A stretch of 64,000 nt of DNA from Halorarum halobium. Its GTDB lineage: Archaea > Halobacteriota > Halobacteria > Halobacteriales > Haloferacaceae. Position 1 is the first letter of the stretch. The number at the start of each line of letters is the position of its first letter. Location: the NCBI RefSeq assembly GCF_032116555.1, contig NZ_CP134949.1:1178001-1242000 (forward strand). The letters run 5' to 3'. Position numbers: made by a program. Positions 42,001-48,000 of the stretch are shown piece by piece.

Positions 42001-45000
42001 GCTGTTCCTGAAGCCGCCGAACTGCGTCGCGCCGCCCGGCTCGACCGTTCCGCTTCCGGCCGGCAAGGAGCAGGTGGAACACGAGGCCGAACTGGCCGTC
42101 GTCGTCGGCGAGCAGGCCAGGAACGTCGCCGCCGTGGACGCCTGGGACGTCGTCGAGGGCATCACCTGCATGAACGACGTGTCGAACCGGGACGACCAGG
42201 ACCGCGAGCGGAACTGGGTCCGGGGGAAGGCGTTCGACGCCAGCGCCCCGCTGGGCCCGGTCGTCGCCGACGCTGAGGACGTGCCCGCGGACGCGGCCGT
42301 CGAACTCCGCCTGAACGGCGAGCGCAGACAGCACGGCACCCGGGACCAGTTCATCTTCGACGTGCCGACGCTGATCGAGGAGGTCACGACGTACCTGACG
42401 CTCGAACCCGGCGACGCCGTCTCCACGGGCACGCCGGCCGGCGTCGGCCCGCTCGCCGACGGCGACCGCGTCGAGGTCGAGGTCGAGGGCGTCGGGGTCC
42501 TCGCACACGACGTCAGTCGGAACTGAGACTCCAGGGCTCGGAACTCGCCCGCGCCCCGACTCCGCGATTTCCAGACGCGTCCCGCTCAGATCCCGGACAC
42601 CAGATCCCTGAGCACCGCCCGCGGGTCGTCCGCCTTCGCCACGCCGCTGGCGAGCAGCACGCCGGACGCGCCGAGGTCGGCGGCGGCCGCCACGTCCTCG
42701 CCGTTCGAGACGCCGGCACCACAGAACAGCTCGACGTCCTCGTCGACGGCGGCGACGGCGGCCGCGGAGTCCTCGACGATGGCCGGGTCCGCCGAGGCGA
42801 CGGAGACGTCGCCGCCGATGAGTTCCGGCGGTTCGACCGCGACCGCGTCGGGACCGAGCGCGGCCGCCGCGGCGGCCTGGTCGGGGTTGTTCGCACAGAC
42901 GACCGTCTCCAGCCCCGTCCGCCGGGCGGCCGCGAGCGAGCCGTCGACGTCCGCCAGTTTGATGCGCCTCTCGGAGTGGTTGAGGAGCGTCCCGGCCGCG
43001 CCGGCGTCGGCGACGGCCTCGGCGAGCGTCGAGCCGGTGTGGCTCCCGTGGCCGACCGGCGAGACGTGCTGGGCCCACGTTTCGACCCCGGTGGCGGCGA
43101 CGCTGGACAGCCGTGCGGCCTGCGGCGCGACGGTGATTCGGGCGCCGGACTCGGCCGCGACGTCGGCGACGGCTTCGGCGACGTCGACCGCGTCACAGGG
43201 GTACGCCTTCAGGTTGACGAGGATGAACATATCTGGGTCGGGGGTCGGTCGGGAGAAAGGCGTGGCGGTTGCGGCGGCGTTACCGGTGGGGGGCGTGGCG
43301 GCGGCAGTTCGTGACCGTCGGGGTCAGTTCTCGTTCCGCTTTACCACGTCGCCGAGCGTCATCGATCCGGACGACTCCGAGGACCACTCGGACTCGTCGG
43401 TGTCCTCGCCCTCCACGAGCGAGATGTCGAGCGCCTTCTCCAGTTTCCGCTGGACGTCGTCGCTCGGCAGGATCTCGCCGCGCTCGAGCTTCCGGATGAC
43501 GCTGGCCTTCTCGTTCAGTTCCTTCGCGAGCTCCTCCTGGCTCAGGCCGGCCTGCTCGCGCGCGGTTCGAAGTCGGTCGTCGTAGTCGGTCGCCACCGTG
43601 TCCATCTCGTCGAACATGTCGCGCCGGCGGCGCGTCGACGACGAGGACGAACTCGAGGAGGACGAGGAGGAGGACGAAGACGACCCGCCCGAGGAGGACG
43701 ACGTCGAGTACTTCGTCGAGGCGGACGACCCGCCGGCGTCCTGCGTGACCGCCGTCCCGAAGTCCGAACAGTCGTCACAGAGCTCCAACTCGGCACCTTC
43801 GACCTTCGTGGTGGTGAGCGAGGGCTTCTCGGCGCCACACATCTCACACTGGGGCATACCAGACCGTAGCGCGCTCCCACTGATAAAACGTGCGCCCCGC
43901 GGGTTCGTCGACGGGAATCTCCTGCCCGGTCGCCGACTTTCGAGGTGATTACCGGATACGGTCGCGTACAAGCCGGAAACTGGAGTTCTTTTTACAGCAT
44001 GACTATCAGAATGTTTCAGATAGATTCAGTATAAAACAAACCGTTTCGAGACCCGTATGCCCGAAAACACTGCGATGGCGGCGTTCCTGGCGGAGCACCC
44101 GAAGCTGATCGGCGCACTGTTCACGATGACGCTGTTGCTGTCACAGGCCGGTGCGGTCGCGGCGAACGGAAGCTCTACTGCTGGTCCGTAAGTTCGGCCA
44201 GCCGTCGGCCCGTTACCTCGTCGCTCCACCGTATCTCGGTCGCGACTTCGATGGGAGACCTGGCCATGGTGAAGGCCCCGTCGAGCTCCGGGACGGGAAT
44301 CGGGACCGGTTCCCCCCGTCCGGAGCCGATGAACCGTTCCTCGTCGTCCCCGAAGTGGCCCATCGACATCGTTCCCAGATCGAACGACGACGTCGGATAG
44401 CACCGTGGCGTGGCCAGCACCCGGTCGCCGTCCGGGTCGTCCTCCAGTTCGATCAGCATCGCCGCCCCCGTCGCACACTGGCACAGCTGGACCCGCGGGT
44501 CCCCGACGATCGTGTACGCGCTCCCCGCGAACGGGCCCCGACCGACGACGTCCAGGGCCGCGTCCAGCGGGAACCCCACGTCGAGCAGCCGTGCCAGGTC
44601 GCGGCCGACGCGCGTGGCCAGCGAGTTCGGGAGCTCGGTCAGCGACACGACGCCGCCGAGCGCGCCCGCCTCGACGAGCGCCATCCCCTGTCGGTAGGAC
44701 GTACAGGCGTTCAACAGGAACGCGTCGACGCCGGTTTCCTCGAGCGCTTCGAGGTCGAGGAAGCCGTCGGGACACTTCACGCCGCGCTCGTCGACGTGGC
44801 CGACGTAGTGGAAGAAGTCGTGGTCCTCGGCCAGCAGGTCGGCCAGCTCCCCGACCGTGAGCTCGCTGTCCTGTCGAACGTCGAACGCGACGTGATCCCG
44901 GAAGCCGTACACCTCGTCGGCCTCCTCCGCCATCCGGTCGTCGTTGCAAACGACGGTGACGTCGATGGTCAGGTCCGCAGAGAGCGTCCGGTCGAGCCGG

Positions 45001-48000
45001 CTGCGGTACGATTCGACCGTCGGTTTCGACGCGCGCATCGGGTAGCCCGGACCGACCCACGCGAGCGACGTGCTGTCGGCGGGGCGCGGCGAGACGACGG
45101 CGTTCCCCTCGTCGGTGACGTTCTGTGTCGGCCCCCTGAGCCAGGGGCGCGACTCCGACCTGTCGCCGGCGCTCCGTGTGAACGCCGGCTCCTCGTCGCT
45201 GCGGACGAACTCGTCGAGCGGACCGCTCCCGTTCCCGCCGGGGACCGTCGGCGCCGGCGGCGGTGAGCGGATCGTCGAGAGGTCCGACGCGAGGAACGGG
45301 AGGATCGCGGCGTTCTCCGCGACCGGCTTCACGTCCGTCGTCTGGGGCCAGTCGATCGCCCCCTCGGTCGCCGACGTCGGCACGTCCAGATACGCGGCGG
45401 TTCGGTCCGCGAGGCTCGCGTCGTACCACGTCCGCCACGGCGGGTCCAGGCTCTCCGAGAGCGCCCGGTGGACCTGCAGGTCCACGTCGTAAAGCCCCGC
45501 CTCGCAGGCTCTCGTGGCACAGTCGAGCGTGAAACAGTGCCGAAGGATCGCGCCGAGTTCATGCGCCAGCCCCTCGCGGTCGGCCGGAAGCCGTCGGGTC
45601 GTCCCGCCCGCGGAGAGATACGGGTCGTCGCTCTCGACGATGCTCGCGGCGAGATAGTAGGCGACCGGTGCCGCCGAGAACAGCGGGCCGTACTCGAAGG
45701 GAACGCCGAGCGTCACCCCCGTCCCAGCGCGTTCCACCAGCGACGGGACGTCGAGCGAATCGCCGGTCTCGATCAGCGGCGGGTGGCCACGGAGCGTGGG
45801 GAACGACCGTTCCGGCGAGGTCGTCGCCAGCGCCGAACCGAAGGTGGACAGCGCCGCGGCGACGTCCGCGGGCTCCTCGGTCACGGTGATCGTTCCGGCC
45901 GGGGTCTCGTGGCGCGAGCGCGCGCCGATCCGGACCGCGGCGGGACCGTCGTCGAGGGAGACGGTCGGATAGCGGCCGTCGTAGTCGACGGACGCGGGGC
46001 CCTCGATCGAGAGGTACGCCTTCACGGGTGCGGTCGACAGTTCGAGGACGTGCTTTCCGGCCGGAACGGCGACGGAGCCGTTCGCCGTCAGCGTCTCGAC
46101 CAGCGAGTTGTCCGGGGTCCGGACGTACACGTCCGCCGTACACAGCGGCGTGACGTGCCGTGTCTTCGCCTCCCAGCAGCCGTCGACGGGCGTCGGGAAC
46201 GCGTTCCCGGCATCGACGCGGACCGGACGGTCGTCGTCCCCGTCGAGCCTGAACGGCAGTTTGACCTCCTCGATCCTGTCCGTGATCTCGTATCCGGCCG
46301 CACCGTCGGCCGGGACGATCGAGAGGGCGTCCGTCGGTTCGTCCGCTGTCTCGTTCACGCGACTCACCCGAGCGGATGCCAGCCGGTCGATCCCCACCCG
46401 TCGATGTGCCAGCGCTCGTCGGGGACGACCGCGCGGTCCCGGAGCCTGAGCTCCACGACGACGTCCAGCCGGTCGGCGAGCTGGGTCACGACGGCGTCGA
46501 CGACCGGGTCCGAGCGGACGTCACCCTCACCGTCGGCTGCCGACCGTCGGGGCAGGTGGAACTGCGCCATGCCGTCCCGCTTCCCGACCGCGGACGTGAC
46601 GTCCCGCAGCAGCGCGCCCGCCGCCGCCTCGCCCAGCGCCGCACGGATGCCGTCGACGCGGAACAGGCAGACGCGAAGCCGCATCCCGTCGTCCCGACCG
46701 CGTTCCTCGCTCCCGTTTTCGCCGACCGCGTCGCCGTCCTCCGCGTCGGCCACGGTCGCGATCGCGTCCAGAAACCGCGAGCGAAACGTTCCGTCACCGT
46801 CAGGCGGGACTCCCCGGTCGCCGGCCGGGGACCCGGAGGCGGCGGCCGGGTCGCGGAGGGGGTCGTCCATCCGGACGACCGCAGCGCCGTCCTCGGCCGC
46901 GGTGACCCCGCCGGGGAACCACGCGTCCGGGCGCGGCGCGTCGTGGGTCAGCCCGAGCACCCGCCGGCGCGGGTACGACGGGTCGCCGAAGTACCGCGCG
47001 GCCGCCACCCGATGTGCGTCGGTCGGCACGTCGCCCGTGACCAGCAGGCGACAGCCGTCATCGAGCGCGTCGAGCGCCTCCCCCAGCGAGGGGTCGGCTC
47101 CCGTCGTCCGGCTCCCGGACCCACCGAGCGATTCGACGGGCCCGGCGTCGGCCCGTTGTCCGTTCATGAACGTCCGGTCCCGTCGTGAGAACAAAAACGT
47201 TCGCCCAGCCGACGGTTCCCCTCCTCACGGCAGGATCGAGAGCCGGCCGGTCGGATCTGCCACGGCCGGGTAGGCGGACCCGGAGCTCACTCGATGTCCG
47301 ACCACGCGCCCCAGAATCGCTGGAGCGCGGTCAGGTGTCCGACGACCGCGAACAGCACCAGCAGCAGCGAAACGACGCCGAGGCCCGCCACGAGCGGCCC
47401 GGGAACCACCGCGGCGACGACGCCGGCGAGGCCCACGAGCGCCAGCCGATCCGCCCGGCCGAGCAGGCCGCCGTACTCCCGGCCGATGCCGACCGCCTGG
47501 ATCTGCGTGCCGAGATACGAGGTCATCAGCACGCCCGTCACCGCGGCGAGCCCGAGCCCGTATCTGCCGACGCCGGCCGCGAGCCCGACCAGGACGGCGA
47601 TGTCGGCGTAGCGGTCCAGCACGTGATCGAGCAGGTCGCCCCCCGAGGATGCGACGCCCTGCTCGCGCGCGAGCGCGCCGTCCACGAGGTCGAGCCAGCC
47701 GTTGAGGAAGACGAGCAGCGATCCGGCGACGTACCACGGCGGCTCGGCGACGCCGAAAGCGACGCCGGCGGCGATCGCACAGCCGAAGGCGACGACGCTC
47801 ACGGCGTCGGGCGAGAGGCCGAGCGCGTCGGCGACCCGGACGAACGGGGAGAGCCCGCGGTCGGCGACGTGGCGGAACCGGTCCAGCGTCATCGGTACTC
47901 CAGGAAGTCAACCTCGCCCGCGGAGGGGTCGCGCTCGCCGGCAGCGACGGCGGCCAGTTCGGCGGCGACCGCCTCGGGCGTCCGGTCGGTCGTGTCGATC

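What a model noticed while it worked through the whole genome (the two positions that open the first line are those of the whole stretch)
44057..46367. Three caspase-fold (CHAT) proteins each paired tail-to-tail with a 44-aa pro-peptide ending in Gly-Pro: a candidate arch [...]
Three paralogous ~700-aa cytoplasmic proteins without any Pfam family (g01223, g01601, g01776) fold as separase/CHAT-type caspase proteases with an invariant His-Cys dyad, and each overlaps or abuts, 3' end to 3' end, a tiny DUF7503 gene (g01222, g01600, g01775) whose product looks like a Sec signal peptide ([HN]P[KR], hydrophobic core, AGNVAA-type A-x-A end) followed by a variable ~8-residue tail ending in invariant Gly-Pro. 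I read the pair as a haloarchaeal counterpart of bacterial RRNPP/arbitrium-type communication: the pro-peptide is exported and clipped, the C-terminal octapeptide returns and is bound by its own receptor-protease, which then cleaves targets; it would also give a gene fo [...]
Evidence so far: Loci: g01222/g01223 C1:1222057-1224367 (17-bp overlap), g01600/g01601 C1:1598691-1600999 (4-bp overlap), g01775/g01776 C1:1763080-1765341 (abutting); a regex scan of all six frames finds exactly these 3 peptides in the genome. Pfam at E<0.05: nothing for the 3 large proteins. 962 homologues, named ones all haloarchaeal, some labelled caspase/CHAT by sources; found in 165 of 201 sampled Halobacteriales genomes, 1-8 copies. 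Alignment of 27: invariant H521 (HYIGH) and C552 (LNAC). AF2 model pLDDT 82; Foldseek top hits separase (9hn0, 5fc2), SAVED-CHAT (8tl0), Craspase TPR-CHAT, gingipain, caspases-3/7; VIA-align over 48,161 chains: gingipain R 4ief Z 17.4 (237 aligned, rmsd 3.5), Kgp 15.5, DdvA [...]
(Added by a program. Inside this text positions count along the whole contig: contig position 1,178,001 is position 1 of the stretch shown here. "Call 12" and the like, gene names such as g00115 and contig names such as C1 are that model's own, and its searches are not shown. The text may have been shortened before it was handed on; [...] marks where a part breaks off. The agent that wrote the report below was given it as the finding of a first reader that could run no searches.)

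Follow-up and report, generated by a model that had tools for sequence, protein, structure and literature searches.

The report
Archaeal peptide signal with protease receptor
Many salt-loving archaea carry a tiny gene for what looks like a secreted signal peptide, paired with a caspase-like enzyme that probably binds only its own peptide, which would be a peptide-based cell-to-cell communication system not yet described in archaea.

Summary
Real, widespread and apparently undescribed. A 44-aa DUF7503 gene (44057-44191) overlaps the 3' end of a 730-aa CHAT/caspase-fold protease gene (His524/Cys555); a KaiC-like DUF7504 gene precedes it. The protease occurs in 279 of 301 Halobacteriales genomes; 169 of 265 sampled copies have a convergent Gly-Pro-ending ORF (chance 2.7%). 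New here: (1) a complex model seats the last seven peptide residues in a pocket away from the active site (0.83, best control 0.00), and that pocket decays in many partner-less copies; (2) the receptor's last ~100 residues and the peptide tail form one ~340-bp hypervariable cassette that changes as a unit between close relatives, which explains the tail-to-tail layout; (3) Haloplanus precursors lost the hydrophobic helix and carry 2-13 tandem cores under purifying selection; (4) the pair also exists in non-halophilic archaea; (5) the Haloferax volcanii peptide HVO_1270 is translated, and TbsP binds its promoter. Best reading: a kin-specific peptide signal that allosterically switches on a cytoplasmic protease. 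It works like RRNPP signalling but is not RRNPP. Export, re-import, sign of control and substrate are inferred. It is probably neither DFS nor the known caspase-like activity.

The parts
43990..44056 (+). AT-rich promoter region of the peptide gene (BRE/TATA-like elements about -44 to -28; probably leaderless)
   Evidence: Sequence; positional enrichment of GAAAA/CGAAAA at -44..-40 and TATCAG at -56 over 106 loci; H. volcanii orthologue listed as leaderless. Function inferred.
44057..44191 (+). DUF7503 pro-peptide gene, 44 aa
   Evidence: ORF; Pfam 72.2 bits; orthologue HVO_1270 translated by Ribo-seq, MS and FLAG tag (PMC10117724 supplement)
44057..44164 (+). Leader: n-region with [HN]P[RK], 12-residue hydrophobic helix, small-x-Ala cleavage-type end (predicted Sec signal)
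   Evidence: Alignment of 72; [AVST]-x-A placed to give a 9-mer in 73 of 92 canonical precursors, an 8-mer in 23. No SignalP run; inference.
44165..44188 (+). Predicted mature core, NGSSTAGP (or one residue longer), hypervariable except terminal Gly-Pro
   Evidence: 124 distinct last-8 sequences among 129; residues 38-44 are the only confident contacts in the complex model
44165..44480 (.). Hypervariable lock-and-key cassette: peptide core plus last ~100 codons of the receptor
   Evidence: DNA identity 0.45-0.72 here against 0.80-0.96 in the 600 nt upstream in 13 close pairs with different tails, recovering in the leader code
44175..46367 (-). Cytoplasmic receptor-protease, 730 aa
   Evidence: ORF; AF2 pLDDT 89.9; only 3 of 265 family members have a 19-residue hydrophobic stretch
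44178..44486 (-). C-terminal specificity domain (residues 628-730), contacts the variable part of the peptide
   Evidence: Contacts 632-637, 656-681, 701-702; identity tracks tail identity; no clear structural match on its own, best Z 3.6
44478..45350 (-). Tandem pseudo-protease plus CHAT/caspase-fold protease (residues 340-630)
   Evidence: VIA-align: gingipain R 4ief Z 17.0, 250 aligned, rmsd 3.7; separase 5fc2 Z 12.9, 217 aligned, rmsd 4.6; Foldseek top hits SAVED-CHAT and separase
44796..44798 (-). Catalytic His524
   Evidence: Invariant in 100 sequences; His-Cys dyad kept in 168 of 169 paired copies
44703..44705 (-). Catalytic Cys555
   Evidence: Invariant in 100 sequences
45777..45824 (-). 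Conserved loop 182-197 (ERSFPTLRGHPP) that, with Lys116 and Tyr293, lines the predicted Gly-Pro pocket
   Evidence: Contacts 186, 189-192; T191, Y293, K116 rank 2-4 of 106 conserved columns for loss in orphans
46020..46022 (-). Lys116, candidate partner of the peptide's terminal carboxylate
   Evidence: Contact; kept in 157 of 169 GP-end, 0 of 7 extended-tail, 29 of 88 orphan receptors. Role inferred.
46364..47194 (-). DUF7504 KaiC-like gene, overlapping the receptor's start (GTGA); candidate substrate or partner
   Evidence: Pfam 93.6 bits; directly upstream on the same strand in 40 of 180 loci; HVO_1268 is arCOG02452, called a KaiC-like ATPase in PMC5847659

Best explanation
A kin-specific peptide signalling switch. 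The small gene makes a pro-peptide (translation shown for the H. volcanii orthologue). In most lineages it is exported by Sec and clipped by signal peptidase to an uncharged 7-9-mer ending in Gly-Pro (inferred). The peptide returns through an Opp/Dpp transporter (inferred) and binds its own cytoplasmic receptor in a pocket away from the active site: a conserved half reads Gly-Pro and a hypervariable C-terminal domain reads the preceding five residues (modelled, supported by sequence evolution). Binding switches on the His-Cys protease (inferred from how other CHAT proteases are controlled and from harmless orphans), which cuts a regulator; the co-encoded KaiC-like DUF7504 protein and, at the oldest-looking locus, the transcription factor TbsP are the candidates (guess from gene order). 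The tail-to-tail layout puts key and lock in one ~340-bp block between conserved flanks, so recombination swaps both together and creates signal dialects; one genome can run up to nine separate channels.
For: Pairing 169 of 265 vs chance 33 of 1224; DUF7503 in 260 of 301 genomes and in none of the 22 lacking the receptor (read off both listings). Complex score 0.83, best of 3 controls 0.00; the mark was reached by 116 of 157 solved complexes and 2 of 215 mismatched pairs; runs share at least 50% of contacts; partner pLDDT 43-49; contacts limited to peptide 38-44 and exclude H524/C555. Full 7-residue pocket signature in 127 of 145 paired vs 8 of 32 orphan receptors. Tail change vs pocket change, partial rho 0.66 on 62 disjoint pairs, 0 of 500 entropy-matched sets as high; pocket above random C-domain sets in all but 5-8 of 500, synonymous sites also raised at the 3' end. 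C-domain identity 0.37 (0 of 5 tail matches, n=9) to 0.82 (5 of 5, n=16) among pairs with core identity >=75%. Nine pairs with nine different tails in G118. Signal-type leader in 134 of 169; tail D+E 1.2% vs 18.4% in the proteome; textbook basic-n-region signals in non-halophiles. Arrays: 28 synonymous vs 4 non-synonymous variant codons, 26-29% synonymous expected. 11 Opp/Dpp binding proteins over cut-off in this genome. TbsP ChIP peak 3 on the HVO_1270 promoter; tbsP follows the receptor in 43 of 180 loci.
Against: No experiment on export, uptake, binding or cleavage. 25 of 169 partners have no hydrophobic signal, and Haloplanus deleted the helix, so export is not needed everywhere. 88 of 265 receptors have no convergent partner, 79 with an intact dyad. 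Pocket decay is not significant within clades (p 0.09 and 0.16) and several orphan clades keep it. K116 is also lost in one clade that keeps terminal GP, including this genome's second paralogue. Most of the covariation is shared by the whole C-domain (0.73 vs 0.77), so linkage explains much of it; in discordant nearest-neighbour cases the tail followed the C-domain 37 times, the core 24, 36 ties. C-terminally FLAG-tagged HVO_1270 was validated in cell extracts (legend only), so some precursor stays cell-associated. No transporter gene among common neighbours. TbsP motif not enriched generally: 7 of 138 vs 4.4 expected.
Confidence: 0.58

Rival explanations
1. The peptide is an inhibitor (antitoxin or survival factor). 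The protease is toxic or triggers dormancy when its peptide runs out, for example on viral shut-off or at low density; cassette swapping reflects selfish-element competition.
For: One-to-one pairing and high translation of the peptide (TE 22); intact peptides beside frameshifted receptors exist; other CHAT proteases act in defence; the complex model cannot give the sign of the effect.
Against: 28 of 88 partner-less receptors keep the pocket and 79 of 88 the dyad, which should be harmful if the peptide were an antidote; a signal-type leader is kept in 134 of 169; the peptide sits away from the active site; neighbours are housekeeping genes, no PADLOC match.
Confidence: 0.16
2. A cell-autonomous ligand or timer, never a signal between cells: the helix anchors the precursor, or the tail reports failed export, and the Gly-Pro end acts on the receptor in the same cell.
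For: Haloplanus arrays and Natrialbaceae-type basic precursors lack a hydrophobic helix; the leader is more conserved (0.17 differences) than the receptor (0.23) in 44 close pairs, unusual for a plain signal peptide; precursor detected in cell extracts.
Against: A housekeeping sensor does not need 124 different tails in 129 genes or cassette exchange; charge distribution puts the tail outside; cleavage-type site at a fixed distance in 73 of 92. Leader conservation is also expected if it serves as the recombination flank.
Confidence: 0.14
3. The large protein is the maturation enzyme (leader peptidase or transpeptidase) of a RiPP-like or antimicrobial peptide, not its receptor.
For: Clan CD includes ligases and transamidases (legumain, OaAEP1, GPI transamidase among fold hits, Z 7-9); multi-core precursors with spacers and K/R-R sites before the core resemble RiPP precursors.
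Against: Peptide contacts exclude the catalytic dyad; single-core precursors end at Gly-Pro with no follower for transpeptidation; no modifying or exporter genes among neighbours; a processing enzyme would follow the leader, yet the receptor follows the tail.
Confidence: 0.06
4. Self/non-self recognition during cell fusion or mating: mismatch of cassette alleles between fused cells triggers the protease, as in fungal incompatibility.
For: Tightly linked, hypervariable, exchanged lock and key; cytoplasmic precursor types exist; haloarchaea mate through cytoplasmic bridges (recalled).
Against: Most precursors are built for export; the receptor appears tuned to its own peptide, not to foreign ones; no data on mating.
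Confidence: 0.06

Closest known systems
RRNPP peptide systems (Rap-Phr, PlcR-PapR, AimR-AimP arbitrium, Rgg-SHP)
   Same: Small pro-peptide with Sec-type leader, C-terminal mature peptide, adjacent gene for an intracellular receptor, many orthogonal pairs per genome, orphan receptors (criteria from PMC10075063).
   Different: Receptor is 680-740 aa, has no TPR array, binds through a beta-rich C-terminal domain plus N-terminal loops, and its output is a cysteine protease, not a phosphatase or DNA-binding domain; archaeal; not found in 50,697 phage records.
Pherotype loci comQXP (Bacillus) and agrBDC (Staphylococcus) (recalled)
   Same: Peptide and the receptor's sensing part lie in one hypervariable block between conserved flanks and change together.
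   Different: Those receptors are membrane histidine kinases and the peptides are modified; here the receptor is cytoplasmic, the block is only ~340 bp and is made by convergent overlap of two 3' ends.
Signal-gated CHAT proteases: Craspase TPR-CHAT, SAVED-CHAT, DdvA, separase
   Same: Pseudo-protease plus protease fold with His-Cys dyad; allosteric activation by a ligand is the rule in this group (PMC11506125).
   Different: Sensor is neither TPR, SAVED nor a CRISPR complex; ligand is a gene-encoded peptide; no defence-island context and no PADLOC match.
Multi-copy pheromone precursors (yeast alpha-factor) and multi-core RiPP precursors (recalled)
   Same: Haloplanus-type precursors repeat one core 2-13 times with a four-residue spacer.
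   Different: No signal sequence, spacer is (Y/F/M/S)TAD, and the arrays arose inside this family from a single-core, signal-bearing ancestor (tree).
Haloferax volcanii disk-forming signal (DFS) with QarABC
   Same: Secreted, small, heat-stable, chemically undefined signal; HVO_1270 is a target of TbsP, which affects shape and motility.
   Different: DFS survives proteinase K and goes into ethyl acetate, unlike a linear GNTGIIYGP; HVO_1270 does not change in the qarA mutant (log2 0.31, padj 0.11; 0.29, padj 0.46).

Membership tests
RRNPP | Small pro-peptide of 10-100 aa | tested here: met
   44 aa; 46 aa and translated in H. volcanii
RRNPP | Pro-peptide secreted by Sec (or PptAB) and matured | tested here: inconclusive
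   Hydrophobic helix in 134 of 169, cleavage-type site in 73 of 92; no SignalP, no experiment; 25 of 169 lack a helix
RRNPP | Receptor of 250-500 aa | tested here: not met
   730 aa; family about 680-740 aa
RRNPP | Receptor binds peptide through TPR repeats | tested here: not met
   Model (pLDDT 89.9) has a beta-rich N-domain and no run of helix pairs; no Pfam TPR at E<=1; modelled pocket is built from loops and strands
RRNPP | Peptide and receptor genes adjacent | tested here: met
   169 of 265
CHAT / clan CD cysteine proteases | Caspase-hemoglobinase fold, separase-type tandem domain | tested here: met
   4ief Z 17.0, 250 aligned, rmsd 3.7; 5fc2 Z 12.9, 217 aligned, rmsd 4.6; Foldseek E 1.5e-6 to SAVED-CHAT
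CHAT / clan CD cysteine proteases | His-Cys dyad after strands, in G-H and x-x-C motifs | tested here: met
   G523-H524, N553-A-C555 invariant in 100; 168 of 169 paired copies
CHAT / clan CD cysteine proteases | Pfam CHAT (PF12770) over its cut-off | tested here: not met
   No hit for the three paralogues; a Haloplanus member scores 22.7 against 24
CHAT / clan CD cysteine proteases | Proteolytic activity and P1 specificity | not testable with these tools
   Needs enzyme assay
Asp-specific caspases | Arg/Gln-lined S1 pocket | tested here: inconclusive
   D476 (154 of 169) and N553 (168 of 169) stand where caspases have Arg and Gln by motif register (caspase motif recalled, no structural superposition of residues done)
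CHAT defence effectors (Craspase, SAVED-CHAT, DdvA) | Linked to CRISPR/CBASS genes or nucleic-acid sensor domain | tested here: not met
   Common neighbours in 180 loci are DUF7504, tbsP, glyA, REC-HalX, housekeeping genes; no PADLOC match for 7 proteins
Arbitrium | Encoded by temperate phages, controls lysogeny | tested here: inconclusive
   No match in phage records; viral contigs: 3 stretches confirmed but no locus returned, none with the alignment; 27 plasmid records, all haloarchaeal
Type II toxin-antitoxin | Protein toxic unless its partner is present | not testable with these tools
   Indirect only: 79 of 88 orphans keep the dyad

The most novel reading that the evidence does not exclude
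An old archaeal peptide language: from methanogen-related and Hydrothermarchaeota lineages to nearly all haloarchaea, cells broadcast 7-9-residue Gly-Pro peptides that gate caspase-like proteases; lock and key are exchanged as a 340-bp cassette to create dialects; the protease cuts a regulator such as TbsP or the KaiC-like DUF7504 protein to switch shape, motility or adhesion; and some lineages turned the signal inward, as polyprotein arrays that are processed or that cluster several proteases, caspase-style.
Probability: 0.33. Interest if true: 0.96.

Novelty: categorically new. Interest (0 to 1): 0.88.

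Why it matters
Archaeal cell-cell signalling is an open field: the H. volcanii density signal is still chemically undefined (PMC13464002) and no peptide-receptor pair is known to me in archaea. This system names the ligand sequence, the receptor, the pocket residues and the catalytic residues, so it is testable with a synthetic octapeptide and one purified protein. It would also be a CHAT protease controlled by a gene-encoded peptide, a receptor type unrelated to TPR receptors, and a compact natural case of lock-and-key cassette swapping. Hundreds of orthogonal peptide-protease pairs would be a ready toolkit for inducible proteolysis.

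Tried and rejected
Sequence searches gave no family for the receptor: Pfam, NCBIfam, PADLOC, PDB sequences with a profile. The C-terminal domain folded alone (pLDDT 81.5) has no clear match (Foldseek none at E<=0.001; best Z 3.6); the N-terminal beta domain matches only at Z 8.6. General TbsP control of peptide promoters: not supported (7 of 138 vs 4.4); the site is kept at -67 in the three Haloferax loci. Identity with DFS: rejected as unlikely. Source of the LEVD/IETD activity of H. volcanii extracts (PMC3615174): judged unlikely, not excluded. Gly-Pro as a by-product of the overlap: rejected, since gaps range from -17 to +161 and all codons are used. Viral carriage: none in phage records, unclear in viral contigs. 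Expression in this organism: no RNA holder listed, no evidence either way. A haloarchaeal 'DGG motif' as cleavage site: no paper found, not pursued. Earlier scan notes: nothing shown. Two Makarova et al. mBio papers (2017 KaiC, 2019 conflict systems) were not held and could mention this family.

Full report
1. Observation. The window holds a 44-aa ORF at 44057-44191(+) and a 730-aa ORF at 44175-46367(-), overlapping by 17 bp at their 3' ends. The small one is DUF7503 (72.2 bits), the large one has no Pfam family, and a DUF7504 gene (93.6 bits) overlaps its start by 4 bp. tblastn on the genome finds three large paralogues; each has a convergent ORF with a hydrophobic core ending in Gly-Pro. The second peptide is longer (about 61 aa, 18-residue tail) and falls under the DUF7503 cut-off.

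2. Range and coupling. The large gene was found in 279 of 301 Halobacteriales genomes and DUF7503 in 260 of the same 301; by the two listings, none of the 22 genomes without the large gene has DUF7503. I collected 265 distinct large genes (best hits and whole-genome inventories, not a random sample; the metagenome set is rich in one orphan clade). 169 have a convergent GP-ending ORF within -60 to +210 nt, 7 a partner with Gly-Pro plus 2-9 extra residues, 88 none, 1 lies at a contig edge. About 3 of the 169 look like chance frames; the background rate is 33 of 1224. All Gly and Pro codons are used and the gap varies from -17 to +161, so the motif is kept at protein level. G118 has nine pairs with nine different tails; G070 has 13 receptors, 8 paired. 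In a phylum-wide sample of 251 genomes the family also occurs in two non-halophilic families, 4 of 4 and 11 of 15 genomes. In the first, the pair is intact, with a basic n-region and ends such as EAVSA-YGTFRGP; its closest named relatives are labelled Methanocellales MAG proteins (73%) and Ca. Hydrothermarchaeota (45-52%), and one low-GC metagenome locus has TVSA-GGGSSVGP. In the second family the receptors are diverged and I saw no partner.

3. The receptor. AlphaFold2 with 100 sequences gives pLDDT 89.9: beta-rich N-domain, a middle alpha/beta part, a tandem caspase-fold region (340-630) and a beta-rich C-domain (628-730). The tandem region matches gingipain R (Z 17.0, 250 aligned, rmsd 3.7), Kgp, separase, DdvA and Craspase; Foldseek ranks SAVED-CHAT and separase first. 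H524 and C555 are invariant. There is no TPR array and no membrane segment. The C-domain alone has no clear structural match. By motif register the caspase S1 Arg and Gln positions hold Asp476 and Asn553 (caspase motif recalled), so Asp-specificity is doubtful; the P1 residue is unknown.

4. The peptide binds away from the active site. The complex of the window's pair scored 0.83 against a best control of 0.00; the mark was reached by 116 of 157 solved complexes and 2 of 215 mismatched pairs; runs share at least 50% of contacts; the partner's pLDDT is only 43-49. This supports binding and does not show it; no like complex is known to me from which it could be recalled. Only residues 38-44 make confident contacts, with 59, 116, 186, 189-192, 292-293 (conserved) and 632-637, 656-681, 701-702 (variable). 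Independent check: T191, Y293 and K116 rank 2, 3 and 4 of 106 conserved columns for loss in orphans; the seven-residue signature is complete in 127 of 145 paired and 8 of 32 orphan receptors (after setting aside 7 receptors with displaced or extended partners and 2 broken ones). Against: the effect rests on about three independent losses, is not significant within clades (p 0.09, 0.16), and several orphan clades keep the pocket. K116 is kept in 157 of 169 GP-end receptors and 0 of 7 with extended tails, but the clade holding most extended tails lost K116 while still ending in GP.

5. Lock and key form one cassette. On disjoint tree pairs, change in the five variable tail residues correlates with change in the variable pocket after removing overall distance: partial rho 0.66 (62 pairs; 0 of 500 entropy-matched column sets as high) and 0.46 (82 pairs; 4 of 500). 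A stricter control shows that the whole C-domain carries most of this (0.73 vs 0.77 for the pocket; pocket still above all but 5-8 of 500 random C-domain sets) and that synonymous sites at the 3' end move too (0.27-0.39). At DNA level, 13 close pairs with different tails are 80-96% identical over the 600 nt before the last 300 nt of the receptor gene, 45-76% within those 300 nt, and mostly 76-100% again in the leader code. Among pairs with core identity >=75%, C-domain identity runs from 0.37 (no tail match, n=9) to 0.82 (full match, n=16); the same tail and pocket sit on three different backbones (L015, L016, L022). The simplest reading is exchange of a ~340-bp block by recombination between conserved flanks, the protease core on one side and the leader on the other. 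This explains both the tail-to-tail layout and the oddly conserved leader. The nearest-neighbour test is weaker (37 vs 24, 36 ties), and no formal recombination test was run.

6. The unit is the C-terminal peptide. 134 of 169 partners have a hydrophobic helix; in 73 of 92 canonical ones a small-x-Ala site gives a 9-mer; tails are almost free of charge (D+E 1.2% vs 18.4%). The tree places them beside single-core, signal-bearing relatives. A further 16 partners have a basic, non-hydrophobic leader before [KR]R-VS[ST]YGGP, and 5 are short YTGP types. So every core is under selection, but export is not universal. A few loci carry two peptide genes (L309, L315).

7. Context and published data. In 180 loci the commonest neighbours are DUF7504 (40 directly upstream, same strand) and, for one clade, glyA (42) and tbsP (43), with the peptide gene divergent from tbsP; this genome's second pair is such a locus. 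HVO_1268 is arCOG02452, called a KaiC-like ATPase in PMC5847659 (passages). The H. volcanii peptide is HVO_1270 (46 aa, ending VAAGNTGIIYGP), leaderless, convergent with HVO_1269, translated by Ribo-seq (TE 22), seen by MS and validated with a C-terminal FLAG tag (PMC10117724: supplement rows and legends, figure not seen). Its promoter is TbsP ChIP peak 3 of 9, and it rises 1.72 log2 without TbsP (FDR<0.06 in Table 3; p 0.014, padj 1 in the supplement) (PMC11023807: passages, Discussion, supplements 9 and 11). The site is kept at -67 in three Haloferax loci but is not enriched across 138 promoters. HVO_1269 has no row in the RNA-seq tables of two papers or the proteomics tables of a third; it may be annotated as broken, and split copies occur in 3 of 5 and 1 of 5 genomes examined. 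DFS is heat-stable, proteinase K-resistant and ethyl-acetate-extractable (PMC12240190, passages), and HVO_1270 does not respond to qarA loss (PMC13464002, abstract, passages, supplement 3), so I do not equate them. The caspase-like activity of H. volcanii extracts prefers LEVD and has no assigned gene in PMC3615174 (passages and section 5 part 1); this family is a weak candidate.

8. Mechanism. Shown: genes, pairing, fold, dyad, translation of one orthologue, cassette-like variation. Modelled: binding of the last seven residues at a non-catalytic pocket. Inferred: Sec export and clipping; uptake by Opp/Dpp (11 binding proteins over cut-off here; at least one in 5 of 5 other genomes); activation rather than inhibition (allostery is the rule in CHAT proteases, PMC11506125 passages; orphans with intact dyad are common); cleavage of a regulator. 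I put this at 0.58; inhibitor 0.16, cell-autonomous ligand 0.14, maturation enzyme 0.06, fusion incompatibility 0.06.

9. Novelty. It works like RRNPP signalling (criteria from PMC10075063, passages) but fails two of five membership criteria, and it is not a CHAT defence effector. Ten literature searches found no description; DUF7503 and DUF7504 occur in no paper held; PMC4158269 has no mention of caspase or CHAT (passages). The library lacks most subscription papers, two relevant Makarova papers were not held, and bioRxiv supplements are closed, so absence from print is not proven. Databases already label some members 'caspase family' or 'CHAT domain'; the pairing, pocket, cassette and arrays are what is new.

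Noticed in passing
window 36739-37485 (-): Weak TraB/PrgY/GumN match (22.7 bits, E 1e-4, under cut-off), 6.6 kb from the pair. PrgY-type proteins destroy peptide pheromones in enterococci (recalled); not a common neighbour elsewhere.
   Followed up: no
window 12991-13596 (+): A second DUF7504 gene with weak KaiC match; the genome has 10 DUF7504 matches, only one beside a receptor.
   Followed up: partly
window 37855-39171: Cluster of three small winged-helix-like genes (one PadR) with AT-rich spacers; two are related and have no Pfam family.
   Followed up: no
window 52103-53944 (-): HerA/DUF87 ATPase with coiled coil and long low-complexity insert.
   Followed up: no
window 35458-36612 (+) and 61177-63879 (+): Secreted proteins with PPC repeats and PKD repeats.
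   Followed up: no
L309, L315 (downstream of the receptor): Two pro-peptide genes in tandem; one in L309 has an aberrant tail.
   Followed up: no
L161/L163, L144/L147: Tandem receptor genes in one genome, some without partner; orphans with intact pockets may listen to peptides made elsewhere.
   Followed up: partly
L231, L232, L234, L235: A clade of receptors that lost the His-Cys dyad but keeps most of the pocket and has no partner: possible decoys or adaptors.
   Followed up: no
L220-L230: Diverged homologues beside dnaG in a non-halophilic family, pocket lost, dyad mostly kept, no peptide seen.
   Followed up: partly
L012, L013, L014, L020, L023, L027, L080, L096, L156: Tails with two cysteines (for example CCGDSTNGP, and C pairs in leader plus tail) that could form a disulfide or thio-linked ring.
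   Followed up: no
L085-L091, L103, L108, L120-L130, L166: REC-HalX response regulator gene directly upstream of the peptide gene in 9 of 180 loci; HVO_1271 falls in conditioned medium.
   Followed up: partly
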